64,000 nucleotides of DNA, from positions 64,001 through 128,000 of IMG/VR virus record IMGVR_UViG_3300045988_120820; one strand, written 5' to 3'. Positions 14,487-58,251 of this stretch are shown here, piece by piece. The stretch's first letter is position 1, and the number at the start of each line of letters is the position of its first letter. The notes below the pieces were generated by a model. It made no database searches and was not told the DNA's origin. It saw nothing but the letters and a program-made list of their open reading frames with translations. Source of the DNA: a virus. Made by a program: the position numbers and the translations under genes.

Positions 14487-14499
14487 TATACTAAATTTA

Positions 14500-15729
14500 T
14501 TAATTATTTTTAATCTGTAATGTTTCTAATAAAATTTCTTCTATATTATCTATATCATAATACCAAATTTCTAATAAATTAATATTACGTTCTTTTGCAT
14601 ATTCCTTTTTTCTACGGTCATGTTCTAATTGACGTTCAAATTTTTCTTTAGTTTGCCAACCCTCTTGCCATTTTTCATGTTGAATTCCTTGACATTCTAT
14701 TAATAGATTATAATCTGGTAAATAAAAATCGTAAGATAAATTACCACCTTTTAATCCAATTAAACCATTATATTCTACTTGAATATTATAGTTTATATTA
14801 TATTTTTCTAAAATATCTTTAGTTTTTATTTCTAACTGTGAAGAATTGCACTCTTTACACACTACACCTGTATCTACTTTATTTAAATTTAATAAACTTC
14901 TTTCAAATTCTTGTCCGCATTTTTCACAAATAAATTTATATTTTTTGTTACTCATAGGTGAAACTTCAAAAGGTGATTTTTTATTATTTTTACTCCAATA
15001 TTTAGCTTTTTCGGGATATAAACTACCAAAGCTGTCTTTCGGATGTACTTTATGATTACTACAATATGAACATCTACAACCATTGTAAAATTTACTTGGA
15101 ATGGTTTTATACCCACCATAATCATTATGATAATCTTTTTCTTGACACAATATCCAAATATCTCTCGCATTATTTTTACTTATTTTAAATGGATTTAAAG
15201 TATTTTTGCTACTCCAATATTTCTCTACAGCATCTTCTCCATAAGTATTTATTAAATATTGTCCAAAACTGTCTTTAGGATGAACTTTTTTACTAGAGCA
15301 ATAAGGACATCTTGCTTCTTCTGTGAAATGAGCAGGTGTTATAAAATAACTTCCATGATAATCTTTCTTATCACATTTAATAACCACCTTTTCTTTATAA
15401 TATTTATTTATTAAATAAGGATTGACTGTATTTTTCTCCCAATCCCAATATTTATTTAAAGGTTCTTGTAATTCTTGTTGAATATAATAAGCAAAAGAAT
15501 TTTCATAAGTATTACAGCAGTTAGTACATTTACACTTATGTTTTCCTACAAAACCTCCCAATCGTACATCATATTCTTTACCACAATATGGACATTTTAC
15601 TCTAATATAACTTAAATTTTTAGAATATTTACCGTCGATAGTAATTTCTCCGCAATGATAACTCCCAATATAAATATATCCATCACCACGATTTTCAACT
15701 TTTTCTTTATGCTCTTCATTATAATACAT
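14500..15729 (-). CDS. free-standing endonuclease-like protein A: repeated Zn-ribbon modules + C-terminal PD-(D/E)xK-like domain
   Basis: 409 aa. CPYC..C..CC and three W(D/S)xxKN..P...CPYCS modules. The C-terminus has LSYDFYLPDYNLLIECQGIQH. About 70% identical by eye to 47570-48583. Confidence 0.6.
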   Translation of the reverse strand: MYYNEEHKEKVENRGDGYIYIGSYHCGEITIDGKYSKNLSYIRVKCPYCGKEYDVRLGGFVGKHKCKCTNCCNTYENSFAYYIQQELQEPLNKYWDWEKNTVNPYLINKYYKEKVVIKCDKKDYHGSYFITPAHFTEEARCPYCSSKKVHPKDSFGQYLINTYGEDAVEKYWSSKNTLNPFKISKNNARDIWILCQEKDYHNDYGGYKTIPSKFYNGCRCSYCSNHKVHPKDSFGSLYPEKAKYWSKNNKKSPFEVSPMSNKKYKFICEKCGQEFERSLLNLNKVDTGVVCKECNSSQLEIKTKDILEKYNINYNIQVEYNGLIGLKGGNLSYDFYLPDYNLLIECQGIQHEKWQEGWQTKEKFERQLEHDRRKKEYAKERNINLLEIWYYDIDNIEEILLETLQIKNN

Positions 15730-15812
15730 AATATCTCCCCTTTATTAATTATTTTTGTTTCCCTTTTTATTCTTTCCAATTGCAACTTAAATTAAACCTT
15801 TTGAGAAATTGA

Positions 15813-20565: not shown

Positions 20566-23500
20566 CTATAATGATTTATTAACAATATCTTTTAAAGTTT
20601 TATTAATCATTTCTTGCATGTCATCAAGAACATTTTCATCAACACTTCCTTCAACATTAATATTGATATCACCCACATTTAATGTTTTAGAAGTTGTATC
20701 TTTATTCATACCTTCTTTATAATTTACATTTCCTAATTGTTTGAATCCAAGTTCTTTAAATATATCTTTATAGTCTTTTAAATAATCCAAAGCTACTTCA
20801 AGATTATCACACAATTCTGTTTTAATTGAATCACCTAATATTCCTACTGCGTCTCCACTTGTTTCTGCAAAGTCAATCAATTTATCTTGTAAATTGGTAA
20901 TATTACCATTTAAATCAGTAAAAGTATTAGTCATCATCGCATCTTTAACCATTTGTGCTATTTTTTGTGGAGTATAAGTGTCATCTATATTTTGTGTCAT
21001 ATCTTCTTTCTTTTTATCTAAAGCGTCTAATTGTTCTTGGAACATATTATCGATGTCTTCATCAACCTTATTTTGAACTGTTTCATCTAATTTATCTTGA
21101 GCTTCTTTTAAATCGTCTAATAATTCTTTCAACTTAGATTTACCACTCATAGAATTATCTCGTTTTGCTAATTCTATTTTTTTATTAATAGTGTCAATTT
21201 CGTCTTGTTGTTCTTTTAAATTTTTTGCATAATCATCTTCATCACGTTGTTTTTTATAATCATCTCTTCTTTTTTCTATTAATTCTTTTTCTTTGTCATA
21301 TTGTTTTTCTATAGCGTCTTTACGTTTATCTATTTCATCTTTTATTACATCTGTGATTTTATCTTCTATGTCTTTCACTTTATTAAGTTTATCTTTTTGT
21401 AAATCTACTATGTTTTTTTGTAAATCAGCATAATTTTTTTCTGCGTCAGCTAAATCGTCATTTATTAAAGAAGTATATTCTTCTAATAAATCATTAACCT
21501 TTTCCAAATCTTCACTGTTTTGAAAACTGTTTAATACTTCGTCTATATTGCTTACATTTCCTTCTACATCAAATGTGAAACCATATTTAGATAAACTTTC
21601 TTGATATGTAGGAATCTTATTTTTCATATTAGTCATTAAATCCATTTGTTTAGATAGTTGTTCATTCATAAGTTTTAATTTTTCTTCTGTCAATTTAATT
21701 GTATCTACTCCATTTGAATTTTCTAGTTTAACATCTATTATATCAATTTTATTTCCTAGTATATCGAATTGATTTTTTAATTGAGTTATGGCGTTGCTAA
21801 ATTTATACAATTTATCTTCTCTAGTTAGTTTTTCAATTTCGTCATTATTTTCTTTAATTGTATTTTTCATTTCTTGCCATTGTTCTTCACAACTAAATAT
21901 ATCACTTTGTTGTATATCATAATATTTATTAGCTAAGTTTGTAAGTTTATCCAATTCTTCTTTATATTTACTAGCTTTATCGCTTGCTGTATTATTTGAA
22001 GAACCACTAGAAGAGCTACTTTTAGAAGATTTATCGGCTACATCTTGAAGTCGTTTATATTCTTTTTGCATAGCCAATAATTTTTCTTCATAGTTAGTCA
22101 TATTCCCATCTTCATTAAATTTGAATCCTTCTTTTTGAAGTTTTTGTTGAAGTGTTTCTCTTTCAGAAATTAAATCGTCATAATATTCTTTTTGAAGTTT
22201 AGCCTGTTCTTCTAATAATTTATTTTTTTGTTTAAGATATTTAATTTTTTCAGTACCTACTGCTTTTTCCATTTGTTTATCTAATAATGAAGTTTTCTTA
22301 GTTACTGTTTCAATTCTATATTGCAACTCTTTAAATAATTCAACAGAGTACTCAATCATATCTAATACATTTTGATATTCAAGGCTTATAGGAGTTAAAG
22401 CTGTTTCTATATCACCTATACTATTAAAATCTCTCGTAGCATAAGTACTTATTCCACCAGAACTATCTGAAGTAGAATTTGTTGTGCTTATATCATTTGC
22501 AGTTACTACAGGTTGTGAAGTCACCATTGGTGTAGCACTCAATTGCTCTACAGAATAAGGATTATCTTCTATATTAGAAAATTCACCTATAGAATCTCCC
22601 CACATTACTGATTTTCCCTTTCCACTATGAGGAACTTTTGATTTACCTTTTTCTGTATAGCTTAACGTAGCCATTATTGATATACTTCGTGGTATTTCGT
22701 TTATTTTTTGTTTTAAACTATCTAATTTATTTGATATATCGGCACTATTACTAATTATTTTAATATATTTCTCTGGAATTTTTAATCCTTGAAGTGCATA
22801 AAGTTGCTGTAATGCTTGAAAAGCCATTACGGTAACATCTACAACTTTATTTTTTAATTGTATAGCATCTACAGTTCCAAGTTCATCTAATGCATTAGAT
22901 AATGCTACTCCAACTTCAATTTGTTTTTCTGCTGGTAGTTGCCCTATTAAGTCCATTACGGTTGCTATGTCACCTTGAGCTAAAGCTTTATCTATTTTTA
23001 CTTTTATGTCTTTTTCATCTTTTTCATTTAATAGACTATCTATTTCAGCCTTAGCAGTTTTTATTGTATCTTCACCTAAAACATTTATATGACAACTTGT
23101 TACTGCTTCTGGATGGTCAAATACCCATTGAATCATGTCTTCATAAGATTTCAATTCAGATAAATCTTGAATGTTATTTTTAAAAAATGTTTCAATGTTT
23201 TTATCTTTACCTCTTAAATTATCCATTAATTTGGCATAATTTTCAACTTGGTCGGTATTTTCTATATTCGCTCTTAAAGTTTTTACTATTTCATCTTTTC
23301 CGTCAAATTGTTTAAAACTCGCAAAAGCGTCATCTATTTTCTTTTTATCGTCATCAGATACAGCATATTCTCCTGTAACAAACAGTTTACCTACATCTAT
23401 TTTACCTTTTCCAAATTGTTTATCTACAAGATTTTGAACGTCTTGAATTAAATTATTTCTAGTTTCTTCATCATCTTCTACATAAATTTGAGATAATTTA

Positions 23501-24519
23501 GCTGTTAATTCCATATCGTCTAAAGAAAATTCATTGTCGTCCATCAATCGATTAACCAAATCTTTTACTTTGTCTGGTAAATTACTATCTTCTAAAGTGG
23601 CTTTAACTTCTTTGATGTTGTAAACCATTTTTCCGTCTTTTTCTACTGTATCAAGACCACTTAAATCTTGAAGAAAATTATTGTAAGCGTCCCATGTTGC
23701 CATTAAATCTTTAGTTTCTTTATCTGTCATGTTTATGTTTTTACCAAAAGAACGTAAATAAGCATCCATAGCATTTTGAGCCATTTTAGCACTTTCTGGT
23801 AACTCTACCATACTTCTAGCTACATCTTCATTTACTCCCCATAATTTGGCTAAAGAAGGGATTAATTTTTCAATTCCTTGTTCATAAGCAGTAATGTCAC
23901 TTGTGTCTGCGTATGCTTGTTGTAAATCATACAATTTTCTTATTGATTTATCTATTGTTCCAGAATCAAACATTTTTTTCATATTCGATTCAAATAAACT
24001 TTGTTGTCCACTTGTTAATTGAGAAAAATCTAATCCATTTACAACTTCTATCATTTCAGATTGAACGTCACTTTTTAATTTACTGAAACCATCACCTATA
24101 GACAAAGAGTTTACTATACTTTTATTAATTTTTTGAGATTCGGCACTTATTTTTGCTTCAGCATCTACAACTGCCTCTTTAGCACTAGCATACGTATCAC
24201 TTAATTTAGCAAGCCTTTCTGAATAATCTTCTAGCCATGCTGAATCACCTGTTTGAACAAATGTGTTATTAAGTTCATCTTTCTTTTTTCTGATGTTTTC
24301 TATTTGTCTATTATATTCCTTAATTGCTTGTTTATTGAAAGCCCCATCTTTACCAGCAAATCCTTGTCCTTCATTCATTTTGTCTGTAGCATTTCTTTGT
24401 TGGTCTTTATATTCTTGATTCAGAGCCTCTTGTTGTTTCTTGATTAATTTATCATATTTTGCAATTAATTTATCAATATCTCCACCCATCGATAAAATCG
24501 GGTTATTATCTTTATCATA
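20566..24519 (-). CDS. tape measure protein, exon 5 (C-terminal 1317 aa)
   Basis: Long coiled-coil ORF. The proposed 3' splice acceptor lies after G at 24520, and the frame continues from exon 4 (..DIVLG|YDKDNNPILSMGG..). Confidence 0.75.
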   Translation of the reverse strand, partial: YDKDNNPILSMGGDIDKLIAKYDKLIKKQQEALNQEYKDQQRNATDKMNEGQGFAGKDGAFNKQAIKEYNRQIENIRKKKDELNNTFVQTGDSAWLEDYSERLAKLSDTYASAKEAVVDAEAKISAESQKINKSIVNSLSIGDGFSKLKSDVQSEMIEVVNGLDFSQLTSGQQSLFESNMKKMFDSGTIDKSIRKLYDLQQAYADTSDITAYEQGIEKLIPSLAKLWGVNEDVARSMVELPESAKMAQNAMDAYLRSFGKNINMTDKETKDLMATWDAYNNFLQDLSGLDTVEKDGKMVYNIKEVKATLEDSNLPDKVKDLVNRLMDDNEFSLDDMELTAKLSQIYVEDDEETRNNLIQDVQNLVDKQFGKGKIDVGKLFVTGEYAVSDDDKKKIDDAFASFKQFDGKDEIVKTLRANIENTDQVENYAKLMDNLRGKDKNIETFFKNNIQDLSELKSYEDMIQWVFDHPEAVTSCHINVLGEDTIKTAKAEIDSLLNEKDEKDIKVKIDKALAQGDIATVMDLIGQLPAEKQIEVGVALSNALDELGTVDAIQLKNKVVDVTVMAFQALQQLYALQGLKIPEKYIKIISNSADISNKLDSLKQKINEIPRSISIMATLSYTEKGKSKVPHSGKGKSVMWGDSIGEFSNIEDNPYSVEQLSATPMVTSQPVVTANDISTTNSTSDSSGGISTYATRDFNSIGDIETALTPISLEYQNVLDMIEYSVELFKELQYRIETVTKKTSLLDKQMEKAVGTEKIKYLKQKNKLLEEQAKLQKEYYDDLISERETLQQKLQKEGFKFNEDGNMTNYEEKLLAMQKEYKRLQDVADKSSKSSSSSGSSNNTASDKASKYKEELDKLTNLANKYYDIQQSDIFSCEEQWQEMKNTIKENNDEIEKLTREDKLYKFSNAITQLKNQFDILGNKIDIIDVKLENSNGVDTIKLTEEKLKLMNEQLSKQMDLMTNMKNKIPTYQESLSKYGFTFDVEGNVSNIDEVLNSFQNSEDLEKVNDLLEEYTSLINDDLADAEKNYADLQKNIVDLQKDKLNKVKDIEDKITDVIKDEIDKRKDAIEKQYDKEKELIEKRRDDYKKQRDEDDYAKNLKEQQDEIDTINKKIELAKRDNSMSGKSKLKELLDDLKEAQDKLDETVQNKVDEDIDNMFQEQLDALDKKKEDMTQNIDDTYTPQKIAQMVKDAMMTNTFTDLNGNITNLQDKLIDFAETSGDAVGILGDSIKTELCDNLEVALDYLKDYKDIFKELGFKQLGNVNYKEGMNKDTTSKTLNVGDININVEGSVDENVLDDMQEMINKTLKDIVNKSL

Positions 24520-25568
24520 CAATATCTTCAATTAGGTTCGCTACTTCCTAATCAGTTCTCTTATGAACTTCTCTATGTTTCCATAGAAGTTGAGACTATA
24601 TCTTTACCTTTATTAAAGGCACATACCACTTCCACTCGCTTGAGTGTACGAGCATTTGCTCTAGTCGTTGAAGTTTACTTTTATTAATTGCTTAAATTAT
24701 ATTTTTTTGAAAATTCAATACTATTTTTTAATCTATTAGGTTTATATTTCATATCAAATTTATAATAAAATTCTTTTGGTATATATTTTAAATAAGGTCT
24801 GACTACATCAAAAAATTTTCTAAAATTTGTAGCGTTAAAATACAATCTATAATATGTTCTATTCTTATATCCTTTGATTCCAGATTTATCAGTATGTATT
24901 TTTAAATCTATATCAAACCTTCTCTTAAACATGTCTTTAATTCTTACATTATCTTTATAACTGAAGCCTTGAGTATTTAGATACCCAAATCTTTTAGCAT
25001 AATTATTTTTAAACGAAACATGCCAGTTTCCATCATCTAAAAACCAAAGTAATAAACCAAAAGAATTTATATTGTTTAAAACTGTGTCTGATAAATATTT
25101 TTTACCATTTAATAATGTATTCTTTTTAAATTCTTCTTTATTAGGAATTTTTATTCTAACATTAGAATAAATATAAATACCAAATGTTGTATTTTTTTCA
25201 TAATCATATTTAGAATGAGTGTCTATTCCTAAAGAACTAAACGTATATTCTAACCATTCAACATAAAATCTTTGTTTATTGGTATGGACACAACGAATAT
25301 ACTCTCCATTGATATCACCATCCCCTAACATCAATCCATATAAACTATTTATTATTTCTTTCTCATTTTTAATCATGTGAATACTCACTCCTTTTTTTAT
25401 TTTCGCAATTAACTTAAAGTCTTACCTGCTGATTGCCCAATCCTTAAACTTTTTAAAACCATCACGCTCATCATTACTGATTACGTTGTGGTATTAAGGC
25501 TCTAAGGGGTTTCCAGCAATTCAATATGTTTTCTAATAATAATTTCTTATTATAGGGGCTATTTATTA
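24520..25568 (-). mobile_element. group-I-like intron TMP-I4 (family A, 1049 nt) carrying a LAGLIDADG ORF
   Basis: The exon ends GGU with UAA immediately after. A P1-like pairing GGGU|UAAUAAAUA-GCCC is present. The core ACGACUAG..AUAUAGUCUC is P7-like. The insert ends ..AAGAUAUUG. It is homologous to 26451-26860 and 43379-43748. Confidence 0.75.
24684..25376 (-). CDS. LAGLIDADG homing endonuclease (intron-encoded)
   Basis: Two motifs, LYGLMLGDGDI and LLLWFLDDGNW. AAGGAGTG SD upstream. ATG at 25376 is preferred over the track's non-ATG start at 25388. Confidence 0.85.
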   Translation of the reverse strand: MIKNEKEIINSLYGLMLGDGDINGEYIRCVHTNKQRFYVEWLEYTFSSLGIDTHSKYDYEKNTTFGIYIYSNVRIKIPNKEEFKKNTLLNGKKYLSDTVLNNINSFGLLLWFLDDGNWHVSFKNNYAKRFGYLNTQGFSYKDNVRIKDMFKRRFDIDLKIHTDKSGIKGYKNRTYYRLYFNATNFRKFFDVVRPYLKYIPKEFYYKFDMKYKPNRLKNSIEFSKKYNLSN

Positions 25569-26450
25569 ACCCAAGACAATATCTTCACCACAAATATCAA
25601 TTATTTGTTGTTGTAACTCTTTAAATCTTTCTTGTTGTGCAGAAGTTTTATCTACTGTATCGTATAATTTTTTATATTCATCTCTAATATTGGATAAATT
25701 TGTTTTTGCTTTTGTTGAGCTAGTTACTTTATTATTTAAATTGGTTATATTTTCTGCATTTTTTTCTAAAGCGTCATTAAGTTTATTAGCCTCGTCTGTA
25801 AAATGTTGAATAACTTTACCTATTCCCCATGATACGAGCATACCTATACCCATATTTATAACGCCCATAGCTAAATTCATAGCTCCTAAAGCTACTTTTG
25901 TTCCTAATGCTTTAGCCTCTACACCTGCTAAAGCACTTCTAACTGCTGTTAATCCAGAGGCAAATACTCCAGATGATTGACGAGCCTCTTTAAATGAAGT
26001 ACCTATCCCTTTTATTACATTCCAAGATTTTCCAAGATAACTAGCTTGAAATCCTTCTTTTATTGTTGCAAAGAATCCTGGATTAGCAGTCCCAACCATC
26101 GTAGCACTAGATGCTTGTCGTGTTGCAGTGGCTTGTCCTTCTAGTGCAGTAGTTGTACTCAAAGCTTCGGCTTTTAATCTTCTTTCTTGATTAATTAATG
26201 CTTCAAATCCACCACTTTGATTAAATTTTATTGATTCAAAAATACCAGAAATTGCCCCTGCTATTACGGGTAATCCTACACCCATGTCATCTATATACTT
26301 AACAAATTTATCTAACATGTCTAAAGCACTTATACCAATGTCTAAAAATCCTTTTGCCGTATTTCCACTTACAGCTGTATTGACTATACTTCTCCATTTT
26401 TCTTGGAGTAATGTAAGTTTCCCTTGCACGGAGTCTATATATCTTGCATT
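25569..26450 (-). CDS. tape measure protein, exon 4 (294 aa)
   Basis: NARYIDSVQGKLTLLQEKW.. continues the TMP core, followed by hydrophobic Gly/Ala-rich segments typical of TMPs. Confidence 0.75.
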
Positions 26451-26860
26451 CGTTATCTTCACATAAATTCGCTACATTTACGCAGTTCTCTTATGAACTT
26501 CCTATACTTTCATATAGAGTCGAGACTATTTCTTCACCTTCAGCATTATCTGTTAAGGGCAAAGTATTTCCACTATCAATAGCTTATAGTGTACGGTTTC
26601 ACAACCTAGTCGTTGAAAGTTTAATCTAATTTATTAATTATTTTTTAAATCTTTTAAATGATTTTTAATTATATTAGATTAATACTTGCATGAACACCCA
26701 TTGTTTAAGATTACTTAGGATTTAACCATATAATCATCCTTACGTTTTTTCTACTTTCGTACCTTCACGTTTATTGTTACCAATTACGTTGTGGTGTAAG
26801 GCTTTAGGGATTACCTGCTTTTAACTTTGTGTCCTACGCACATTTCTGTACGTACGGAGA
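26451..26860 (-). mobile_element. group-I-like intron TMP-I3 (family A, ~410 nt, ORF-less); 5' junction uncertain (26861 or 26870)
   Basis: Shares UAGGACACAA, GCAGGUAAUCCC..ACACCACAACGUAAU, CAACGACUAG, AAAUAGUCUC and the ..AAGAUAACG 3' end with the capsid and I4 introns. Confidence 0.7.
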
Positions 26861-26977
26861 ATGTTGTTTCTCTTTCATTGAACTTCCGAAAGTGTCGCCA
26901 TTTTCGTACTCTTTCATAAATTTTTCTGCTTGACTCCAGTTACTCATTATTGCTGTGAAAACGTTCAGTTGGTTTTT
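26861..26977 (-). CDS. tape measure protein, exon 3 (mini-exon, ~36-39 aa)
   Basis: Hand translation KNQLNVFTAIMSNWSQAEKFMKEYENGDTFGSSMKE(KQH). This is the xxQxNxFxAxMxNW segment expected after AIAG in TP901-type TMPs. It is not in the ORF track. Confidence 0.7.
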
Positions 26978-28142
26978 CGGTTTGTTATCGTAAAGGCTTT
27001 TTATCCTCTACTTCTTATAGTTTCCTATAAGCCCAGCATACATTTTCACCCTCGTTTAACGTTAGGTATTGATGGTTGCAAACCCATCTCAAGTATTACT
27101 ATATAATACTGTGGAGGAGGCTCGTGATAGGATTATTGCTAACAATATCGCTCACCTATTATGCGTTACGGATGTTCTCTGTTAAGACACCCTCGGTATT
27201 ACCATATCCGTTAAGGACTTAGGCTCTCTTACCACCTTAATCTTTCGATTTAGTTGACCGATACACCCCTCTAATCTACATGATATTTCTACCATGAGTG
27301 GCATAATATTTAATTAATAGTTTATATTTTTTAAATTTTCTTTCTAAATATATATTTGAATTTTTATAAATATAATCACAAAAAGTTAATACATCTTCTT
27401 TTTTATTAGTTACTAATCTAAAGATATCATTGGATTTACAATTCGTTTTGTAAATTCTCCCCAATGGAATATTTGTATTCAAACATATACCTTCTAGGAT
27501 ATTTTTAGTTCCTAATATTTCTATACTTTGATGTTTTTCAGTACAAACAATACAACCATCTCCATCTAAATACCCTCTTATAAAATGAGGTGTTAATTCT
27601 TTAGGAACTTGTTCTTCTGTTGGAAAAGTTAATGTCAATGATTTTCTAGGAGTACATCCTAATTTAATTAAATCTTGCTTCATTTTTTTATTTTTAAAAG
27701 ATACTCTACATCTAAAATCATCTACAATTAATTTTCCCTCAAACCCTATAAAATCTTTGAATTTTTGAAGATGCTCTTTATCTGATAATTGTAAAGAAAG
27801 TTCTATATCATTTCTTTTACCACTTGAAATACTTCCATCGGCATATAAAAATCCTAACCAATAAGCTTTTTCTTCAGAGTCTATTTTCTCAAATATATCA
27901 TCGTTTATCTTCTTTTTATGTGGCATAATATTAACTTTTATACCTTGGTTTTTTAAATAAGAAGAAAATCTACTTCTTGAAATTTTTAATTCTTTACTGA
28001 TTCTAGCTGTAGATACTCCTTCTAAATACATTTTTAAACCCAAATTATATTTTTCTAAAGTTTCCTCCATCATAATATTCACCCCCTTTTTATTCTTTCC
28101 TTTATTAATTATTTTTAAACCTTTTAAACTATTAATTTATAT
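26978..28142 (-). mobile_element. group-I-like intron TMP-I2 (family B, 1165 nt) carrying a LAGLIDADG ORF near its 5' end
   Basis: The exon ends GGU and the insert ends GAUAACAAACCG. It shares AUUAGAGGGGUGUAUCGGU and GGUGAAAAUGUAUGCUGG with the terminase intron 51617-51968. Confidence 0.75.
27276..28073 (-). CDS. LAGLIDADG homing endonuclease with N-terminal HTH (intron-encoded)
   Basis: Motifs WLGFLYADGSI and FIRGYLDGDGCI. N-terminal TARISKELKISRSRFSSYLKNQG is HTH-like. GGGGGTG SD lies 8 nt before the ATG at 28073. Confidence 0.85.
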   Translation of the reverse strand: MMEETLEKYNLGLKMYLEGVSTARISKELKISRSRFSSYLKNQGIKVNIMPHKKKINDDIFEKIDSEEKAYWLGFLYADGSISSGKRNDIELSLQLSDKEHLQKFKDFIGFEGKLIVDDFRCRVSFKNKKMKQDLIKLGCTPRKSLTLTFPTEEQVPKELTPHFIRGYLDGDGCIVCTEKHQSIEILGTKNILEGICLNTNIPLGRIYKTNCKSNDIFRLVTNKKEDVLTFCDYIYKNSNIYLERKFKKYKLLIKYYATHGRNIM

Positions 28143-28313
28143 ACCTGCAATCGCTTCAGCTACAGAAGATTTACTTTTTTTATCTAATTTATCCCACATT
28201 CCTGCTATATCGCCCATGATGTCATAGAAATCTCTAACTTGGCCATTTGAATCGTGCATATCAATTCCAGTTATTTTTTCTATGGCCATTGCTGTTTTAT
28301 TCATTGAAATACT
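28143..28313 (-). CDS. tape measure protein, exon 2 (mini-exon, 57 aa)
   Basis: Hand translation SISMNKTAMAIEKITGIDMHDSNGQVRDFYDIMGDIAGMWDKLDKKSKSSVAEAIAG, the conserved TMP core segment. It is not in the ORF track. Confidence 0.75.
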
Positions 28314-28623
28314 CGAATTGTTATTAACGTTAAGTTTTTTATCTTAACCTCTGGAAGTTTCCTTCATTTTCATCGATTGGTCATTTCCAATCCAGTCTGG
28401 CGTACATATTCCATCTCATATAAGACAGTCGGAGACTCTTGGAGGAATTATATTCTATTTAAATAGTTTCATCCTCTACGCTCTACATTATTGAATAAGT
28501 TTTAATTTATTCAATTAACTCGGTATTAACTTATCTTTATTAATTATTTTTAAGACTTAGTCTTTCTTACCATATGTATTACTACATATATGACCGAATT
28601 TCCCCGAACCGGCAATATTATTT
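28314..28623 (-). mobile_element. group-I-like intron TMP-I1 (divergent family B, 310 nt, ORF-less)
   Basis: A P1-like pairing CGGU|AAAUAAUAUU-GCCG is present. The 3' end AAUAACAAUUCG parallels GAUAACAAAUCG and GAUAACAAACCG of the other family B members. GNRA hairpin GAAG-GAAA-CUUC. Confidence 0.65.
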
Positions 28624-30654
28624 ACCGTCTTTAGCACTTGTTTTCCAACCTGCCATATTTTGCATGATTGTTTTTAAACCATTACCTAATTTACTTGCAT
28701 TTTGTAATGGTTCTTGCCCTGCAATTATAATAGCAACCAACTCTTGCATACTAACACCTAATGTTTTCGCAACAGAAGATGAACGCATCATTGCTTCAGA
28801 TACGTCTTTACCTGTAACAGCATAGTTGTTGTTTGCATAGTTGACCATATCCATCATTTGCATCATTTTGGTAGTTTCTTTGGTGTTACCTTTGACTTTC
28901 ATTGTGACTTTATCTAATGAGTTTGCAACACCACCATAAGATGCTAATGTTGATTTCAAGTATTTATCTGCATCTGCTTGGCTTGTATCTATAACGTTGG
29001 CAAACATAGATGCATTTTTAGCATATTGTAAAGCTTTACTAACATTATGGAAACCAGATTGTAATGCCTCGGCAGTGGAATCAATTATATCAATACTACT
29101 TCTGGCAACCTCTTGACCTGCCTCACTTGCTTTTTGAGTTAACCAATCTAATTGCTTGGCTGTTCCTGTAAAGGTGTCTGGTGCAACTTTTAATAATTTT
29201 TTAATAGCCGTATCTGTATCAATAATAGTACTAGGAATTGAAGATATACCTTGAGTGATAAGTCTACCAATCATATTTGGTATTGAATACATTGATAACA
29301 TAGAGGCTAAATTACTGAAAAATCCAGACGTTTTCTTGGTTGCATTTCCTAATATATTCATTGCTTGAGTTGCACTTCTAGCACCATTAGCAACTCCGTT
29401 TATACCATTTCCGTTAATATTAGATAGACTACTAGAAAAAGTACTTACGTCTTTAGTCAGTGCTTTTAACTCTGCGTCTCTATCTTTTAAATTACTTATA
29501 CTAGCTATAGTTTGTAGTCTTTGTTTAAATTCTTCTACCTTAGATGATGAAGCTCCTAATTCTTGACATCTTCTTGTTAAGTTTGTTAAATCTTGAGATA
29601 CTTTATTAAAATCTGCATCAAATTTTACATTAGCTCTTTTAGTAGAAATTTCACTTTCAAATTGTTTATATTTATTTTCACATTGTGCTATTTTATCTTT
29701 TAAACCATCAAATTCAGCTTTAGCACCTTCTGTATTAGGGTCTATATTTCGTAATTTTGATTGATATTGTTCTATTTGAGTTATTAGTTCTTGTATTCCA
29801 GATGTATTAGCAAATTTACTCGTTCCTAATTCAGCAAGTTTAGCTTTAAGAGATTCTAACTTAGCAACAGATGTATTTATCTTATCGGTGAATGTAATTG
29901 AACCATTCAATCCTTTTAATGACACCGACACATTACTAATCTCTGCATTTAAATTATGTATTTGTTCATATGCCTTGTCAGATTTTAATATTTGACTTAA
30001 ATCAGCACCTTTAACATTATTGATTTTATTTTGAAGTTCTTGAAGTTGTCCCATCTGTGAACTTGTTAAGTTTTTATTTTTGAACATATTATTAATTTGT
30101 TCAGAGGTATTATTAGCCTTTTGTTGAATTTTATCAAATGAACTTATTAAATCTCTACTTATATCTATATTAGATTTATTTTTTAAGTTGTCCATTTTTT
30201 GTGCAGTAGATTGCATCTCACTGTTAATTTTTGATAACTTAGATTCTAACTCGTTATAAGCTTGAGTATTTATAGTTTTAGACATTTGTTTTTGAAGTGA
30301 TTCTGATTGTTTTTGTAAAACTTTATATTTAGCTATAGTATTATCTAATTCTTTATTACCTGTAGAAGTCTTAGTAGAACCACTGCCAAATAAATTTTTT
30401 TGCACGTCTTTACTTAAAGAATTTATTTCTTTTAAAGTGTTTTGTATTTGTTTAAGATTGTTTAATTGGTCATCTTTAAGTTTAAAGGCATTGTTTAGTA
30501 CTTTTTGAAGTTCTTCCATTTGAGCTTTCATTTTAGTAGTATCAAATTTTAGATTAACTTCTTTTTTCTCTAGCTTTTCCTTCAACTTAGCAACTTCTTG
30601 CTCTGCACCACTTCCATCTACAGAAGTTTTTAACCTAATAGTTAAATCTGCCAT
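28624..30654 (-). CDS. tape measure protein, exon 1 (N-terminal 677 aa)
   Basis: Coiled-coil N-terminus, then ..GVSMQELVAIIIAGQEPLQNASKLGNGLKTIMQNMAGWKTSAKDG, the start of the TP901-type TMP core. A stop follows one codon after the proposed GGU splice donor. Confidence 0.8.
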
Positions 30655-31576: not shown

Positions 31577-31714
31577 TTCTTAATCTCCCTTCTTTATTAA
31601 TTATTTTAATACATCTTCTCCTATTTCACACATTATACAAATAGTAATTAGAGTTATAACACAACTGGCTTTGTGTACGATTATATTATATGATTATTTT
31701 AAATTTATATTCAC

Positions 31715-39301: not shown

Positions 39302-39325
39302 AAGTTAAAATTTATTAATTATTTT

Positions 39326-43205: not shown

Positions 43206-43229
43206 ATGTTAATTATTAATTATTTTTGA

Positions 43230-43378
43230 TTAGTTTTGTATTTTTATTATAGCGTAAGTAGAAGCTATAGCTACACCTAAATGTACCATACGGTTCATTT
43301 CCATTTCGATTTGATAATCTTTTCTAGCTCCAGTAGTATCTTCGTTTAATTCTACATCGCCTAATCTTCGCATAAGGT
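43230..43378 (-). CDS. major capsid protein, exon 2 (C-terminal 49 aa)
   Basis: Hand translation (Y)LMRRLGDVELNEDTTGARKDYQIEMEMNRMVHLGVAIASTYAIIKIQN. The frame is restored when joined after U at 43749. It is not in the ORF track. Confidence 0.7.
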
Positions 43379-43748
43379 CGTTATTCTTATACCGTTCTCT
43401 AAGGAACTGCTCATGCTTTCACATGAGAGGAGACTATTTCTTCACCCTATATTTATAGGGGCAACCCACTTCCACCCACTTGGGTGTACGAACTTGCGTT
43501 CTAGTCGTTGGAGTTTTTCCTCGTTATATTATAAATTTATTTATAACAGGGGAACTTACCTGCATGAACAGGGATTGTAATGAATTTAATCATTTAGTGT
43601 TTAGGATTTAACCATGCACCATCTCTACGTTTTTTCTACTTTCGTGCCGTTACGTTTTAGTTTTCACTATCCGCTTTGGTGTAGAGCTTTACCCATTACC
43701 TGCAATTCAAGTTGTGTCCTATACCGATTGCTCGATATACGAGGCGTT
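43379..43748 (-). mobile_element. group-I-like intron in the major capsid gene (family A, 370 nt, ORF-less)
   Basis: A P1-like GCUU|..GAGC pairing is present. It shares UAGGACACAA, GCAGGUAAUGGG, CAACGACUAG, AAAUAGUCUC and the ..AAGAAUAACG end with TMP-I3 and TMP-I4. Confidence 0.75.
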
Positions 43749-44640
43749 AAGCTACGTTTAGCTCGTTACCTTCATATCCTAATTTTACAATTGACTCACC
43801 GGCTGGTAGTAAAATTAAGTATTTATCTTCTATATCAAATTTACCTACTTCTTTATCATAATAGTTTGGTAATGGAACTAATGGAGTACCTTCAAACACT
43901 CTAGTATAACCATAATTCCTTCTATCATCTTTTTCTGCGTCAGATAAGAAAGTAGCATCAGTTTTTACATGAGCTAATGCTGATTTAGTACCTAATATTT
44001 GTACTTCTGCACCTGTATAGTCAGAAACTTTAGCTATCATTTCTCTTAATGTTTCTGCTAAAGCAGTATCTGGAGTAGCCTTGCATAAATTTGGATTTCC
44101 GGCAGTATCATAAGCCCCATATAAAGTTTTAGTTACTAAAGTACATATTTTTTTATCAAAAGATTTAGAAACTCTTTCTACGAATAATGTCCAATCTATA
44201 GCACCTTTTAAGAAATCGAACATTTCTGCATAGATTTTGATACCTAGTCTAAAACCTTTAGTATCAACTTTTCTATCAAAAATTCTTTGTCTATGAACAG
44301 TCTTGACACCAGTAGCCATTAAACTAACTTTAAATAATTCATCATTTTGTACTAAATATTCTTTTTTATCACCTAAGTCGAATGTTTCAACATCAACTAA
44401 ATCTCCATAAGATTCCATAGTTATTTCATTATGTGTTACTGTTATTAATTCTTCTAATAATTCAAATACAATAGTACCATTTCTATCTAACCATCTTTTA
44501 TATTTAGATTTCTTTTCTGGTAATGGTTCTACTTTTTCAAATATCATATTTCTGATTATATCAGATGCTTCTTTTTTAGAATAATTACATACTCCATTAT
44601 GTAAATCTACTATCATTTGTCTAACATCGTTATCTATCAT
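43749..44640 (-). CDS. major capsid protein, exon 1 (297 aa + 1 nt)
   Basis: Abundant-protein context: strong SD, a terminator after exon 2, and position after scaffold/decoration genes. The ORF ends ..LGYEGNELNVA with UAA spanning the splice donor. Confidence 0.7.
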
Positions 44641-48611: not shown

Positions 48612-48660
48612 TACTATATTATTGTATTAACATTTCTATATTATAAATCACCTATGATTT
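48612..48660 (-). promoter_or_regulatory. promoter/operator element, copy 5 (upstream of endonuclease gene B)
   Basis: Minus-sense AAATCATAGGTGATTT-N14-ATGTTAATAC matches the four elements at 58.15-60.02 kb. Confidence 0.5.
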
Positions 48661-48665
48661 ATTAA

Positions 48666-50341: not shown

Positions 50342-51616
50342 TTAATTAGCTAAGAAAATATGTCTTTTTCTCTTGTTTCTATTTTTCTTTCTTATATCTT
50401 TTTCTATTAATTCAGCTAAATAATTACCATAAGTAATAGAAGAATATCTATCTTTACGATTTCTTCCTTTTTCTTTAAGAACTATATCACCATTTCCCAT
50501 AGTTTCATAATCTAAGTTTATTGATTCAAATATAAAATTAGATGTTTGAATAAATGGTGCTATTTTATTAGCATGGTATTCAGCGTCTTGATGATATTTT
50601 AAGTCTTTACTAAAGTCTCCTCTTTTTTCATTTTCTTCTATTAATAATCTTATTTTTTTACTACCAAAAGCATTTTTAAGATATACTGCACAATCATTAT
50701 TTATTTTTTGATTCCCTTTAATTACATATATACAATTTATACCATTTTTTAAAGGTTGAAAATCTTTTGATTGTGTACTCATATCATAAATGCCAAAAGG
50801 TTCGTAATGTTCATCAATATTTTCGTCATAAGATGATTTTTCCATCTCTTGTATTACTGCTATACCTAAACCACCACCATCTATAATGATTTTATCAGCT
50901 TTAAATTCTGTATATAATCTCTTAATTCTAGTGGCTTGTTTTTCAAATTTCATACCATTATGTGATTCCATATAAACAACTTCTCTAATAATATTATTTC
51001 CACTAGGAAGTAATCTCCATAAAGTAAAAATAGAGTTATCATTTTTATTTGATTTGTTAGCTTTTGCTGTGGCTACATCGACCGAAATTATTCTTATTTC
51101 GTCTTTCTTTTTAGGCATTTGTCTTAATTTCTTTTTCTTCTCTTCCGGATTTCTATAGTCGTCATCTGTTAATGGATAATAACAATTCTTTAAAACTCTA
51201 GCATTTAACATATCAGATGTATTAAAGAAGCAATCACCACTTTGTCCATGCCATATAGCACCATATTCCATATTAAATACAAATTCGCCCATGTCCTCTT
51301 TATCTTCTTCAATCTTATCTTTTAATACAAGTTTATGGTCTAAAGAAGCTAAATAAGGAATAGCACATGCAAATGATTTTCCACCCTCAAACATTCTATT
51401 TAGTATAGTCATAAACTTTTCATAACTCCAATGAACTTTCATCCATGCAGAACTTAGATATATCTCCATATTAGCTTCTAATGGATAATCTGCATATTCG
51501 GGTTTTTCTAAAAATGGAGGTTTTCTTGGATTTGTTAAGAATTGTTTTAAAACTGAATTTATTATATCTAATTTGATAAGCCTAAATTCGTCTGCAACCA
51601 ATACGTTACCTCTCAA
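50342..51616 (-). CDS. terL: terminase large subunit, exon 2 (Walker B + nuclease domain)
   Basis: Begins LRGNVLVADEFRLI (Walker B-like); ISVDVATAK and IIDGGGLG are nuclease-domain-like. It has no start codon of its own (TTG in frame after the intron's terminal G). Confidence 0.75.
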   Translation of the reverse strand: MRGNVLVADEFRLIKLDIINSVLKQFLTNPRKPPFLEKPEYADYPLEANMEIYLSSAWMKVHWSYEKFMTILNRMFEGGKSFACAIPYLASLDHKLVLKDKIEEDKEDMGEFVFNMEYGAIWHGQSGDCFFNTSDMLNARVLKNCYYPLTDDDYRNPEEKKKKLRQMPKKKDEIRIISVDVATAKANKSNKNDNSIFTLWRLLPSGNNIIREVVYMESHNGMKFEKQATRIKRLYTEFKADKIIIDGGGLGIAVIQEMEKSSYDENIDEHYEPFGIYDMSTQSKDFQPLKNGINCIYVIKGNQKINNDCAVYLKNAFGSKKIRLLIEENEKRGDFSKDLKYHQDAEYHANKIAPFIQTSNFIFESINLDYETMGNGDIVLKEKGRNRKDRYSSITYGNYLAELIEKDIRKKNRNKRKRHIFLAN

Positions 51617-51968
51617 CGATTTGTTATCCTATAGGCTTTTTATCCCATAGTTCTTACATTTTACCATCATGTAAGTCCAGCATACATTTTCACCTTCAGC
51701 ATTATCTGTTAAGGGGAGGAGGCTCGTGAGAAAATTATTGCTCTCATATTATCGCTCATTTCTTATGCGTTACAAACAGTATTAGATATTACTGCTCTCG
51801 GTATTGTCCCTTGTGAATTGGAGGATTCTCTTTTAATTTTATACAAATTCAAAATGAAGATTTCCTGTGCTTTTTCTTCTCTTAATATAAAATTATTATT
51901 CATTTTATGAACCGATACACCCCTCTAATTATCTAAAAAATTTCTCTTTTAGACGGCTATACTTTTTA
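51617..51968 (-). mobile_element. group-I-like intron in terL (family B, 352 nt, ORF-less)
   Basis: The exon ends GGU followed by UAA, and the insert ends GAUAACAAAUCG. Long blocks are shared with TMP-I2 (27000-27275). Confidence 0.75.
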
Positions 51969-52481
51969 ACCTCTCGCTCCATCATTAGAAGCTATAGCTG
52001 TTATTACAGAACCATTTTTAAAAATACATTTAACATTATCCTTATTATTTTGAACTTTTTTAATTTCTTTTGCTAACGCAGGGTAATCCCTGCGTAAATC
52101 TTCAATCTTTTCGGTTATAATTAATCCTGCTTGGTCTTTATTACCAGATGCAACTACTATCTTTGAACCCGGATATAATATTGCTCTACAACATACAAAT
52201 ATCGCGGTTATAAAACTTTTTCCCAAACCCCTCGATGCAATCCAGCACACACTTGTACATATATTCATCATGTAAAGCAATACTTGTTGAAACCAATACA
52301 AATTAATTCCTAACCAATCCATACAAAATCTATGTGGATTTTTTCTAAAATATTCAGTCCATATTTTTACACCATCTAATAAGTTTTCATATGAATCCTT
52401 TTTTAAGTTTTTTCTTTGTTTACATTTTAATTTATTTTCCATATCCACGCTCATCCTCCTCTGTATAAGGAGTTGAATCAT
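51969..52481 (-). CDS. terL: terminase large subunit, exon 1 (Walker A ATPase part)
   Basis: IASRGLGKSFITAIFV is a Walker A motif, and the exon ends ..ASNDGARG. The true start is probably at 52442-52454, overlapping terS; the coordinates give the track's longest ORF. Confidence 0.75.
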
Positions 52482-57597: not shown

Positions 57598-57625
57598 ATT
57601 CTCTATCTCCCTTTATTAATTATTT

Positions 57626-58203: not shown

Positions 58204-58251
58204 TAAATTATTATTAATCTTTCGTATTTATGAATGAAATGAATAAATTAA

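What the first reader, a model, noticed from the sequence alone, without database searches (positions are those of the whole stretch)
24520..28623. Two intron sequence families, each with one HEG-bearing and two ORF-less members, spread over three late genes
Family A comprises TMP-I3 (26451-26860), TMP-I4 (24520-25568) and the capsid intron (43379-43748). In RNA sense these share GC(A/U)GG(U/A)AA..CCUUA..ACCACAACGUAAU, CAACGACUAG, A(A/U)AUAGUCUC, GUUC(A/C)UAAGAGAAC-like blocks and the end AAGA(U)A(AC/UU)G. Family B comprises TMP-I1 (28314-28623, divergent), TMP-I2 (26978-28142) and the terminase intron (51617-51968). These share AUUAGAGGGGUGUAUCGGU, GGUGAAAAUGUAUGCUGG, GAUAAAAAGCC and the end AUAACAA(A/U)(U/C)CG. 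The hairpin CCCUUAACAGAUAAUGCUGAAGG is shared between I3 (family A) and the terminase intron (family B). Only I2 and I4 keep an endonuclease ORF. ORF-less I1 and I3 still contain the phage's stop/SD junction motif AAAAAUAAUUAAUAAA in a peripheral region, as if an ORF had been lost. The pattern suggests intragenomic spread to ectopic sites followed by HEG decay.
Basis: partly seen in the sequence, partly recalled or inferred. Interest (0 to 1): 0.7.

Follow-up and report, generated by a model that had tools for sequence, protein, structure and literature searches.

The report
Six phage introns, two mobile families
A gut phage carries six self-splicing group I introns of two related families in its tape-measure, capsid and terminase genes, and comparison with about 18 sister phages shows them being gained, lost, moved to neighbouring sites and stripped of their endonuclease genes, which is a rich but not fundamentally new example of intron mobility.

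Summary
Six inserts interrupt three late genes on the minus strand: four in the tape measure gene, one in the major capsid gene and one in the large terminase gene. They fall into two sequence families. Both families fold as group I ribozymes with strong covariation (family A 93.6% and family B 91.2% of cells paired, against 35-48% in slid controls). Only I2 and I4 carry LAGLIDADG genes.

Corrections:
- Intron-less alleles in sister phages and guide-sequence complementarity put I3 at 26451-26869 and the capsid intron at 43360-43768. Both then follow a G rather than the usual U.
- I1 belongs to a separate sub-family.
- The "shared hairpin" is a P8 module found in 72 unrelated viral contigs.

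About 18 related IMG/VR phages show every site polymorphic for the intron, and four of the six sites polymorphic for an endonuclease gene. They also show deletion remnants of endonuclease genes and three extra sites. Near-identical or related introns occupy different sites: two capsid sites 30 nt apart, tape measure site 1 and terminase site 2, tape measure site 2 and terminase site 1.

Spread to new sites followed by endonuclease decay is therefore supported. It is old, acts at the population level and is blurred by recombination between introns. This is a new member of a known kind; interest is moderate.

The parts
28314..28623 (-). TMP intron 1 (I1/T1). 310 nt, ORF-less, sub-family B2. P1/P10 guide AAUAUUGCCG pairs with the ligated exons CGGU|AGUAUU (10 bp).
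   Evidence: Intron-less alleles read GACGGT|AG(C/T)ATTTCA. Structure and covariation. P1/P10. Closest relatives are the terminase site-2 intron of sister phages (75-82% identity) and phiCD211 TMP intron 1.
26978..28142 (-). TMP intron 2 (I2/T2). 1165 nt, sub-family B1. The HEG is inserted in the P1 loop, between the 5' splice site and the guide sequence.
   Evidence: Intron-less alleles read GCAGGA|AAAAAC; intron-bearing alleles read GCAGGT|. ORF-less 337-362-nt versions occur in 10 sister phages. Covariation.
27276..28082 (-). I2 homing endonuclease gene, 268 aa: double-motif LAGLIDADG_3 with an N-terminal HTH. Its last codons run through the guide sequence and P2.
   Evidence: Pfam LAGLIDADG_3 7.4e-8. 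PHROG 4645 endonuclease 1.5e-60. 33% aa identity to the HEG of terminase-site-1 introns in sister phages. ORF end.
26451..26869 (-). ORF-less, family A (IA2-like). The 5' exon ends in G. The guide CAUUCUC is the exact complement of GAG|AAUG.
   Evidence: Seven intron-less alleles read ATGAAAGA(A/G)|AATGC(G/A) and lack the 9 nt AAACAACAT. P1/P10. Covariation.
24520..25568 (-). TMP intron 4 (I4/T4). 1049 nt, family A, canonical P1 GGGU/GCCC. The HEG sits in the P6 loop.
   Evidence: The intron-less allele L039 reads CTTGGGT|TATGAT. ORF-less 350-431-nt versions occur in 12 sister phages, and a different HEG occurs in L052 and L054. Covariation.
24684..25388 (-). I4 homing endonuclease gene, 234 aa, LAGLIDADG_2. 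It is unique to this phage among the relatives sampled.
   Evidence: Pfam LAGLIDADG_2 2.5e-18, matching profile positions 4-168 of 168. No blastp match to any other HEG of the set.
43360..43768 (-). ORF-less, family A, sister of I3. The 5' exon ends in G (GAAGG|UAAC...GAAGAUUAGG|CGAUG).
Evidence: Rfam RF00028 48.4 bits, E=2e-11, at 43410-43769 when searched alone. Intron-less capsid alleles lack 39 nt. The 3' end is homologous to the P9.2 and GAAGAUAnnG tail of I3 and I4.
51617..51968 (-). Large-terminase intron (L1). 352 nt, ORF-less, sub-family B1, at ...GCGAGAGGU|...AAAUCG|UUGAGA in the ATPase Walker B region.
   Evidence: Intron-less alleles read GAGGC|TTGAGAGG. Terminase Pfam hits on the spliced product. 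HEG-bearing 1254-nt versions occur in L009, L011 and L013. Covariation. No Rfam hit even at E<=10.
20566..30654 (-). Tape measure gene in five exons: 28624-30654, 28143-28313, 26870-26977, 25569-26450 and 20566-24519. The spliced product is 2381 aa.
   Evidence: single ORF. PHROG tape-measure families down to 4e-43. Homology to the annotated phiCD211 TMP.
43230..44640 (-). Major capsid (structural) protein gene in two exons: 43769-44640 and 43230-43359. The spliced product is 333 aa.
   Evidence: The corrected product aligns in one piece over at least 80% of its length with homologues in all 78 matching phage records. Some are annotated major capsid protein (Bacillus phages Izhevsk, KoopaTroopa) or structural protein.
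50342..52481 (-). Large terminase gene in two exons: 51969-52481 and 50342-51616. The spliced product is 595 aa.
   Evidence: Uninterrupted 1785-1788-nt alleles occur in L003-L008, L010 and L018.
26533..26559 (-). P8 hairpin of I3, identical over 27 nt to the P8 of the terminase intron (51689-51715).
   Evidence: Its 20-nt core occurs in 72 IMG/VR contigs.
26631..26644 (-). Junction motif AAAATAATTAATAA in the P6a loop of I3. It also lies at 28537-28550 (a P5-type loop of I1) and at 28102-28115 (the HEG leader of I2).

Best explanation
Shown:
- The window holds six group I introns in three late genes of a roughly 135-kb siphophage of a low-GC gut Firmicute. The phage is distantly related to C. 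difficile phiCD211.
- The introns form two ribozyme lineages. Family A (I3, I4, capsid) is IA2-like, with P7.1 and P7.2 hairpins between P7 and P3'. Family B has the same P3/P7 pseudoknot topology and splits into B1 (I2, terminase) and B2 (I1). The Rfam model does not see family B.
- In the phage population every site is polymorphic for presence or absence of the intron. Four of the six sites are polymorphic for an endonuclease gene.
- Related introns occupy different sites.
- ORF-less introns carry endonuclease remnants.

Inferred mechanism:
1. Each intron is transcribed within its host gene and removes itself. The guide sequence pairs with the last 3-5 nt of the 5' exon and the first 1-7 nt of the 3' exon.
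2. The LAGLIDADG proteins of I2 and I4 cut intron-less alleles during co-infection, so the intron is copied in by recombinational repair (homing).
3. Intron-HEG composites were occasionally copied into new sites, and guide sequences then adapted to the new exons.
4. HEGs were repeatedly lost by internal deletion and sometimes replaced.
5. Paralogous introns exchanged segments by recombination.

I3 and the capsid intron most probably splice after a G paired to a C of the guide instead of the usual U-G wobble.
For: Interruptions and intron-less alleles.

Fold:
- Rfam RF00028 scores 48.4 bits (E=2e-11) on the capsid intron.
- Family A: 93.6% of cells paired against 35-45% in slid controls; 30 of 52 pairs with changes on both sides; 0/500 shuffles reach the observed value.
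- Family B including I1: 91.2% against 36-48%; 29 of 54 pairs; 0/500. P3, P4, P7 and P7.1 are 100% paired.

Guide complementarity to ligated exons: 10, 8, 7, 7, 5 and 4 bp for I1, I2, I3, I4, capsid and terminase.

Adaptation of exon bases: the base before the intron is a synonymous T in intron-bearing alleles and A or C in empty ones (I2 GGA to GGT; terminase GGC to GGT). For I3 it changes from GAA to GAG, matching a guide C.

HEGs.

Movement between sites:
- The capsid site-2 intron, 30 nt upstream, is 95.7% identical to the 5' half of the capsid site-1 intron and carries a homologous HEG (57-61% aa identity).
- The terminase site-2 intron is I1-like.
- I2 and the terminase site-1 introns share both the ribozyme family and a homologous LAGLIDADG gene at the same position in the P1 loop.

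HEG decay.

Recombination between paralogues: shared P7.1/P7.2 alleles.

Horizontal spread: introns are often better conserved than their flanks, e.g. 0.93 against 0.78/0.83.
Against: - No RNA data, so splicing and exact splice sites are inferred.
- Two introns would have G instead of U before the 5' splice site. From general knowledge of group I introns this is very rare and is expected to slow the first step. In the capsid intron a U-G wobble is available one nucleotide downstream, but using it would break the reading frame.
- Rfam gives no hit for family B, and the best family A hit is just under the gathering score (48.4 against 50).
- The direction and timing of transposition events cannot be reconstructed, because the introns are mosaics.
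- Endonuclease activity and targets are untested.
Confidence: 0.8

Rival explanations
1. The six introns were acquired independently by ordinary homing from a large pool of related introns circulating among Firmicute phages. The within-genome family resemblance reflects that shared pool rather than copying from site to site in this lineage.
For: - Family A and B introns also sit at three other TMP positions in phiCD211 and AR1086-1.
- The 3' cores match introns of Staphylococcus, Enterococcus, Bacillus and Vibrio phages at 86-97% over 70-100 nt.
- The P8 20-mer is present in 72 unrelated viral contigs.
- Introns are better conserved than flanking exons.
Against: - Homing needs a homologous target. 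An intron cannot reach a TMP, capsid and terminase site without at least one non-homologous step somewhere.
- External database matches cover only 20-53% of an intron at 72-87% identity. The in-clade paralogues align over their whole length, including peripheral elements and the HEG position.
- The two capsid sites 30 nt apart carry 95.7%-identical 5' halves.
Confidence: 0.15
2. The reader's original boundaries for I3 and the capsid intron are the true splice sites (U before, G at the end). The intron-bearing proteins would then carry 3 and 13 extra residues.
For: Both give open frames in the window and obey the canonical U and omega-G rule.
Against:
- Intron-less alleles and all distant homologues lack the extra residues.
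- No guide pairing can be drawn for those sites, whereas the corrected junctions are complementary to the guide over 7 and 5 bp.
- The supposed 3' exon start of the capsid gene is homologous to the P9.2 and tail of I3 and I4.
Confidence: 0.07
3. The similarity between inserts is only the convergent core that any group I ribozyme must have, so the 'families' are structural classes rather than relatives.
For: P7, the J8/7 tail and P4 are invariant and widely shared.
Against: - The similarity extends to non-core parts: the P5 extension shared by I3 and the capsid intron, P9.1/P9.2, the L2 loop AGAAAU, and the HEG leaders.
- Homologous HEGs sit in the same loops.
- Cross-family comparisons are mostly not significant, while within-family z-scores are 17-43.
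Confidence: 0.03

Closest known systems
Staphylococcus phage Twort orf142 introns and the T4 td intron (subgroup IA2); cited from my own knowledge (Landthaler and Shub 1999; Golden et al. 2005, the latter cited in PMC3984707)
   Same: - Several self-splicing introns in one phage gene.
- IA2-type architecture with P7.1/P7.2.
- I4 has a td-like 5' end: UUGGGU|UAAU..., a GCCY guide and a P2 hairpin.
- The HEG sits in the P6 loop.
   Different: - Four introns in one gene here; Twort orf142 has three.
- The host genes are a tape measure, a capsid and a terminase gene.
- Two members follow a G rather than a U.
Group I introns of Bastillevirinae phages (PMC11878797, NAR 2025)
   Same: [quoted passage not shown]
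- A small internal exon between adjacent introns (in an RNR large-subunit gene).
- VSR/PD-(D/E)XK-type and other HEGs.
- Partial Rfam hits separated by HEG loops.
   Different: - That survey started from Rfam and GISSD hits. Family B here gives no RF00028 hit.
- No tape measure or capsid introns were reported there.
- No site-to-site paralogy was analysed.
Annotated Intron_gpI in the tape measure gene of Clostridium phage phiCD211 (LN681537)
   Same: - Homologous gene (30-43% aa identity) interrupted by a family A-like intron about 12 codons upstream of the I1 site.
- RF00028 score 41.7 bits.
   Different: - Different insertion sites.
- phiCD211 actually carries two tandem introns (B-like then A-like) separated by a 33-nt exon, and only one is annotated.
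- The window phage has four introns at other positions.
Homing cycle and deletion derivatives: T-even phage intron distribution and Streptococcus thermophilus phage lysin intron variants; cited from my own knowledge (Goddard and Burt 1999; Sandegren and Sjoberg 2004; Foley et al. 2000)
   Same: Presence/absence polymorphism of introns among close relatives; ORF-bearing and ORF-deleted versions at one site; exon co-conversion next to the insertion site.
   Different: Here nine polymorphic sites in three genes can be compared in one clade. Three HEG families and clear paralogy between sites are visible.
Ectopic transposition of group I introns, by reverse splicing or relaxed HEG specificity, as reviewed in PMC3984707
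   Same: Related introns at different positions of the same or different genes are the classical circumstantial evidence.
   Different: [quoted passage not shown] Here the cases are protein-coding phage genes, one pair of sites is only 30 nt apart, and the HEG moved together with the ribozyme. That fits a DNA-level route at least as well.

Membership tests
Group I intron | Conserved core helices P3-P8, P4-P6 and P7 with the P3/P7 pseudoknot order (P3 5', P4-P6, P7 5', P3 3', P8, P7 3', P9). | tested here: met
   - Family A: 93.6% of cells paired and 30 of 52 pairs with compensatory changes, plus the Rfam alignment.
- Family B including I1: 91.2% and 29 of 54 pairs. P3, P4 and P7 are 100% paired.
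Group I intron | Score at or above the curated threshold of Rfam RF00028. | tested here: not met
   - Whole-window gathering scan: 0 hits.
- Capsid intron searched alone: 48.4 bits against a threshold of 50.
- Terminase intron and I1: no hit at E<=10.
- The already annotated phiCD211 intron also scores below threshold, at 41.7 bits, so this reflects the model's reach rather than the fold.
Group I intron | The last intron nucleotide is G (omega-G). | tested here: met
   All six introns, and all 60+ alleles in sister phages, end in G at the junction fixed by intron-less alleles.
Group I intron | The 5' exon ends in U, forming a U-G wobble with the internal guide sequence. | tested here: not met
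   - Met for I1, I2, I4 and the terminase intron.
- Not met for I3 (GAG|) and the capsid intron (AAGG|), where a G-C pair occupies that position.
- This applies to two of the six introns, and the splice sites are inferred, not measured.
Group I intron | The guide sequence pairs with both exon ends (P1 and P10). | tested here: met
   Contiguous complementarity to the ligated exons of 10, 8, 7, 7, 5 and 4 bp.
Group I intron | GTP-dependent self-splicing. | not testable with these tools
   Needs in vitro transcription and splicing assays, or cDNA from infected cells.
Subgroup IA2 (family A only) | Two extra hairpins, P7.1 and P7.2, between P7 5' and P3 3'. | tested here: met
   P7.1 has four or five alternative stem sequences, all paired (94.9%). 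P7.2 is 97.5% paired. The definition of the subgroup is taken from my own knowledge (Michel and Westhof 1990).
LAGLIDADG homing endonuclease (I2 and I4 ORFs) | Match to LAGLIDADG profile families above the curated threshold, and two LAGLIDADG motifs for a monomeric enzyme. | tested here: met
   - I4 ORF: LAGLIDADG_2 67.1 bits against a cut-off of 25.
- I2 ORF: LAGLIDADG_3 33 bits against 22.5.
- The I2 ORF shows YWLGFLYADGSI and FIRGYLDGDGCI in the sequence.
Mobile (homing) intron | Intron-plus and intron-minus alleles in one population, with altered exon bases next to the insertion site. | tested here: met
   Counts in sister phages:
- I1 8/16, I2 12/16, I3 9/16, I4 14/16.
- Capsid site 1 9/18.
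- Terminase site 1 at least 4/18.
 Synonymous changes at the junction. Actual cleavage and homing were not tested.

The most novel reading that the evidence does not exclude
I3 and the capsid intron may be natural group I introns that splice after a G paired with a guide-sequence C, instead of the near-universal U-G wobble.

The shift looks like the scar of a DNA-level jump. The sister intron 30 nt upstream in other phages starts with the same UAAC but sits after a canonical U. If so, this phage clade preserves before-and-after states of ectopic intron transposition in protein-coding genes, a step for which the field has only circumstantial rDNA examples.
Probability: 0.4. Interest if true: 0.7.

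Novelty: new member of a known kind. Interest (0 to 1): 0.5.

Why it matters
Group I introns with homing endonucleases in phage genes are textbook material, so the basic finding is not new.

Three things make the locus useful.

1. Density. Four introns in one tape measure gene and six in 28 kb exceed the 'two or even three' per gene reported for other phages (PMC11878797).

2. A natural series covering the whole intron life cycle in one clade. About 18 sister phages show empty sites, HEG-bearing introns, deletion derivatives, HEG replacement, paralogues in other genes and recombination between paralogues. This makes the poorly understood step of movement to new sites (PMC3984707) testable with defined donor and recipient sequences.

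3. A blind spot in annotation. Family B is invisible to the Rfam model that annotation pipelines use. Genes split by such introns will therefore be mis-annotated as fragments in gut-phage catalogues. phiCD211 already has one such unannotated intron.

The two introns that follow a G would interest ribozyme specialists if confirmed.

Tried and rejected
- Rfam at the gathering threshold on the whole window, and at E<=10 on 24000-29000, found nothing. Only a 411-nt slice around the capsid intron gave a hit.
- megablast of the capsid region against INPHARED phages found no match. The phage has no close relative in that collection.
- AlphaFold on capsid exon 1 as a single sequence gave pLDDT 34, which is unusable, so no fold search was run. 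Capsid identity rests on gene order and on annotated distant homologues.
- I looked for a seventh intron with family core motifs. AACGACTA also occurs at 58329 and 11283, but the first lies in a repeat-bearing non-coding region and the second inside an ORF. Neither is an intron.
- I considered seven alternative splice-site pairs for the capsid intron, including cleavage after the available U-G wobble.
- MAFFT alignments of whole families misalign P5, P8 and P9. I therefore scored only helices whose columns I had checked.
- Literature searches for natural non-U 5' splice sites gave nothing usable.
- Full-length covariance models could not be built within the tool's size limit and were not attempted.

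Full report
**Setting.** The window is AT-rich (about 27% GC) and its genes lie almost entirely on the minus strand. The tape measure region is 30-43% identical at the protein level to the large C. difficile siphophages phiCD211, phiCDIF1296T and AR1086-1. IMG/VR holds about 18 contigs of 114-140 kb whose terminase, capsid and TMP are 72-98% identical to the window. A human-gut MAG contig carries a 96%-identical terminase, and a Terrisporobacter mayombei contig a 62%-identical one. The phage is therefore a gut phage of a low-GC Firmicute, probably a member of the Peptostreptococcaceae. The host is an inference.

**Are the six inserts real interruptions?** Yes.
- Removing the four TMP inserts gives one open frame.
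- tblastn of that product against phiCD211 runs through all four positions in a single frame.
- Sister phages carry empty alleles at every site. Contig L039 has no TMP intron at all, L024-L027 have an uninterrupted capsid gene, and L003-L008, L010 and L018 have an uninterrupted terminase gene.
- The interrupted genes are the tape measure gene (PHROG families down to 4e-43) and the large terminase gene (Pfam Terminase_6N, TerL_ATPase).
- The third gene encodes a 333-aa structural protein. Its distant homologues are annotated as major capsid protein or structural protein. It sits where a capsid gene is expected.

**Two families.** I compared the ribozyme parts, with ORFs removed, by global alignment against shuffled controls.
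- Family A: I3-capsid z=43, I4-capsid z=23, I3-I4 z=17.5.
- Family B: I2-terminase z=21, I1-I2 z=6.6, I1-terminase z=0.9.
- Cross-family pairs are mostly not significant.
- I1 is better described as a separate sub-family, B2. Its closest relatives are an intron at a second terminase site in sister phages (75-82% identity) and an unannotated intron in the phiCD211 TMP.

**Group I fold.** Rfam finds nothing in the whole window or in 24000-29000 at E<=10. Given alone, the capsid intron scores 48.4 bits against RF00028 (threshold 50, E=2e-11) with a full-length alignment. The intron already annotated in phiCD211 scores 41.7 bits. The terminase intron and I1 give no hit at all. I therefore derived structures by comparison and tested them on representative alignments.

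- Family A: P2, P3, P5a, P7, P7.1, P7.2, P8, P9, P9.1 and P9.2 give 93.6% standard pairs against 35-45% when the 3' partners are slid. 30 of 52 pairs change on both sides. 0 of 500 shuffles reach the observed value. The two hairpins between P7 and P3' mark it as IA2-like; that definition is from my own knowledge.
- Family B, with I1, the phiCD211 intron and the terminase site-2 intron included: 54 pairs give 91.2% against 36-48%. 29 pairs change on both sides. 0 of 500 shuffles reach the observed value. P3, P4, P7 and P7.1 are 100% paired.

Both families have the P3/P7 pseudoknot order of group I introns.

**Corrected boundaries.** phiCD211 lacks the corresponding three residues too.

The junctions that reproduce the empty alleles are GAG|AAAC...AUAACG|AAUG for I3 (26451-26869, 419 nt) and GAAGG|UAAC...GAUUAGG|CGAUG for the capsid intron (43360-43768, 409 nt). 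The guide sequences agree: CAUUCUC in I3 is the exact complement of GAG|AAUG, and CGCCU in the capsid intron is the complement of AGG|CG. The canonical I4 has AUAGCCC for GGGU|UAU, and I1 has 10 contiguous pairs.

The consequence is that these two sister introns follow a G, not a U. In the capsid intron a U-G wobble is available one nucleotide further on, but cleavage there cannot give an open frame with any G-terminated 3' site. I regard the corrected junctions as well supported and the chemistry as unexplained.

**Endonuclease genes.** The I4 ORF (24684-25388) is a complete LAGLIDADG_2 protein. The I2 ORF (27276-28082) is a double-motif LAGLIDADG_3 protein with an N-terminal HTH.

The I2 ORF lies in the P1 loop, directly after the 5' splice site. 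Its last nine codons run through the guide sequence and P2, as comparison with ORF-less alleles shows.

**Population survey.**

| Site | Occupied in sister phages | Endonuclease gene |
|---|---|---|
| I1 | 8 of 16 TMP loci | never |
| I2 | 12 of 16 | in 2, plus the window |
| I3 | 9 of 16 | never |
| I4 | 14 of 16 | in 2, plus the window |
| Capsid site 1 | 9 of 18 | in 6 |
| Terminase site 1 | at least 4 of 18 | in 3 |

Two extra sites appear in relatives.
- A second capsid site lies 30 nt upstream (CCGGU|UAAC...AAAAAG|UGGAG).
- A second terminase site has a 12-bp P1/P10 guide match.

**Three HEG families** occur.
- H1: LAGLIDADG_3 with HTH, in I2 and in terminase site-1 introns. The two are 33-34% identical and sit at the same place in the P1 loop.
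- H2: CapR/zinc-ribbon repeats with a C-terminal domain that gives only weak Pfam matches to RAP and phage endonuclease I. I read it as PD-(D/E)XK-like. It occurs in capsid sites 1 and 2, in the I4 site of L052 and L054, and in terminase site 2.
- H3: LAGLIDADG_2, only in the window's I4.

**Movement between sites.**
- The capsid site-2 intron is 95.7% identical to the 5' half of the site-1 intron. It begins with the same UAAC and carries a homologous HEG (57-61% aa identity). It sits after a canonical U.
- I2 and the terminase site-1 introns share both the ribozyme sub-family and the HEG family at the same internal position.
- I1-like introns occur in the terminase gene.
- Family A and B introns occupy three further TMP positions in phiCD211 and AR1086-1. 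One of these is only 7 nt from the I2 site.

Homing cannot move an intron between non-homologous sites, so non-homologous transpositions must have occurred. Each site's intron is orthologous across phages whose flanking exons differ by up to 25%. The events are therefore older than this genome. Whether they happened within one genome or between co-infecting phages cannot be decided.

Introns are often better conserved than their flanks (0.93 against 0.78/0.83 for I2 in L043; 0.91 against 0.80/0.82 for the capsid intron in L028). This fits later horizontal spread by homing.

P7.1/P7.2 hairpin alleles are shared between paralogous sites. One capsid site-1 allele equals the I3 type, and capsid site 2 equals an I4 type. 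The introns are therefore mosaics, and a simple tree would mislead.

**HEG decay.**
- ORF-less I4-site introns keep 38-72 nt of the 3' end of the H2 gene. In L047 the remnant still reads NIEEILEKEINK, against ...NIEKILDKIINK* in the intact gene.
- The ORF-less capsid intron of L031 keeps 51 nt identical to the HEG end of L032.
- L029 has a truncated HEG. L054 and L033 have HEGs that lack one repeat.
- The I3 P6a loop holds a HEG leader 93% identical over 29 nt to the I2 leader, with no ORF behind it.

It also shows replacement, since H2 and H3 occupy the same I4 loop in different phages.

**The motif and the hairpin.** AAAATAATTAATAA has 13 exact copies, or 20 with at most one mismatch, against 2.6 expected. 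It lies mostly between a stop codon and the next ribosome-binding site. It is part of the I2 HEG leader, and it also encodes the last residues (KIINK) of H2 endonucleases. Its presence in I1 and I3 is thus consistent with HEG remnants. Its function at gene junctions is unknown.

The hairpin shared by I3 and the terminase intron is P8 and is identical over 27 nt. Its 20-nt core occurs in 72 IMG/VR contigs of many sizes and sources. It is a widespread module, not evidence of exchange within this genome.

**Comparison with what is known.** Phage genes with two or three group I introns, small internal exons, HEG-bearing and HEG-less variants, and Rfam hits broken by HEG loops are documented for Bastillevirinae (PMC11878797). 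From my own knowledge the same is known for Twort and the T-even phages. The review PMC3984707 states that movement to ectopic sites is unresolved and rests on circumstantial rDNA cases.

This locus is therefore a new member of a known kind. It is notable for density (four introns in one gene), for a family the standard model misses, for a well-sampled natural series of the intron life cycle, and for two probable non-U 5' splice sites.

**Verdict.** Interest is 0.5.

Noticed in passing
window, 13 exact sites, e.g. 14497-14510, 15742-15755, 31594-31607, 39312-39325, 43213-43226, 48659-48672, 57613-57626 (all minus strand): AAAATAATTAATAA(A) is strongly over-represented: 20 sites with at most one mismatch against 2.6 expected. 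It sits between a stop codon and the next Shine-Dalgarno sequence. It may be a promoter, a processing site or a terminator-like signal of this phage. The same 15-mer encodes the C-terminal KIINK of endonucleases in sister phages.
   Followed up: partly
window 58049-58626 (-): A non-coding stretch of about 580 nt carries a direct repeat, GGTCAAGATTTTGTGCAGTA, twice, together with AT-rich tracts. It lies between a 300-aa ORF and a small gene. It could be an origin or a regulatory region. It is not an intron.
   Followed up: no
L001 (phiCD211, LN681537) about 6146-6755, i.e. record about 28578-29187: The phiCD211 tape measure gene holds two tandem group I introns, a family B-like one and then a family A-like one. 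They are separated by a 33-nt exon encoding EKVGTALKTIG. Only the second intron is annotated, and the upstream exon is annotated as a separate 'minor tail protein'.
   Followed up: partly
L059-L130 (IMG/VR): The exact 20-mer CTTAACAGATAATGCTGAAG (the P8 hairpin) occurs in 72 viral contigs from 4 kb to 344 kb and from many sample types. It could serve as a simple marker for finding this class of phage introns.
   Followed up: no
window 51617-51968 and 28314-28623: Rfam RF00028 does not detect family B introns even at E<=10, and its filters drop family A in a whole-window scan. Pipelines relying on it will annotate such split genes as fragments.
   Followed up: yes
window 25577-25587 and 24520-24530 (-): The 11-mer TGAAGATATTG occurs in the 5' exon 8 nt upstream of the I4 5' splice site and again as the last 11 nt of I4. 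The pattern is conserved in many sister phages, although some I4-site alleles end in GTGAAGATATTG. It may be chance, a cryptic splice signal or a trace of the insertion event.
   Followed up: no
L033, L034, L036, L037 (capsid site 2) and L012, L016, L017, L020 (terminase site 2): Sister phages have introns at sites that are empty in the window: 30 nt upstream of the capsid site, and about 160 nt downstream of the terminase site. L012 has two terminase introns.
   Followed up: yes
window 28143-28157 and 51969-51980 (-): 5' exon ends of I2 and the terminase intron: The two sites that host homologous LAGLIDADG-bearing introns share AGCGA..(G)AGGT just upstream of the insertion point (GAAGCGATTGCAGGT and GGAGCGAGAGGT). 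This is a possible remnant of a common endonuclease target.
   Followed up: no
L009, L011, L013 against the window, 51617-51968: The terminase site-1 intron exists in two diverged lineages that are 72-75% identical, although the flanking exons are 76-96% identical. In L011 and L013 the first codons of the 3' exon are also different (CAAAGATGC... against TTGAGAGG...).
   Followed up: partly
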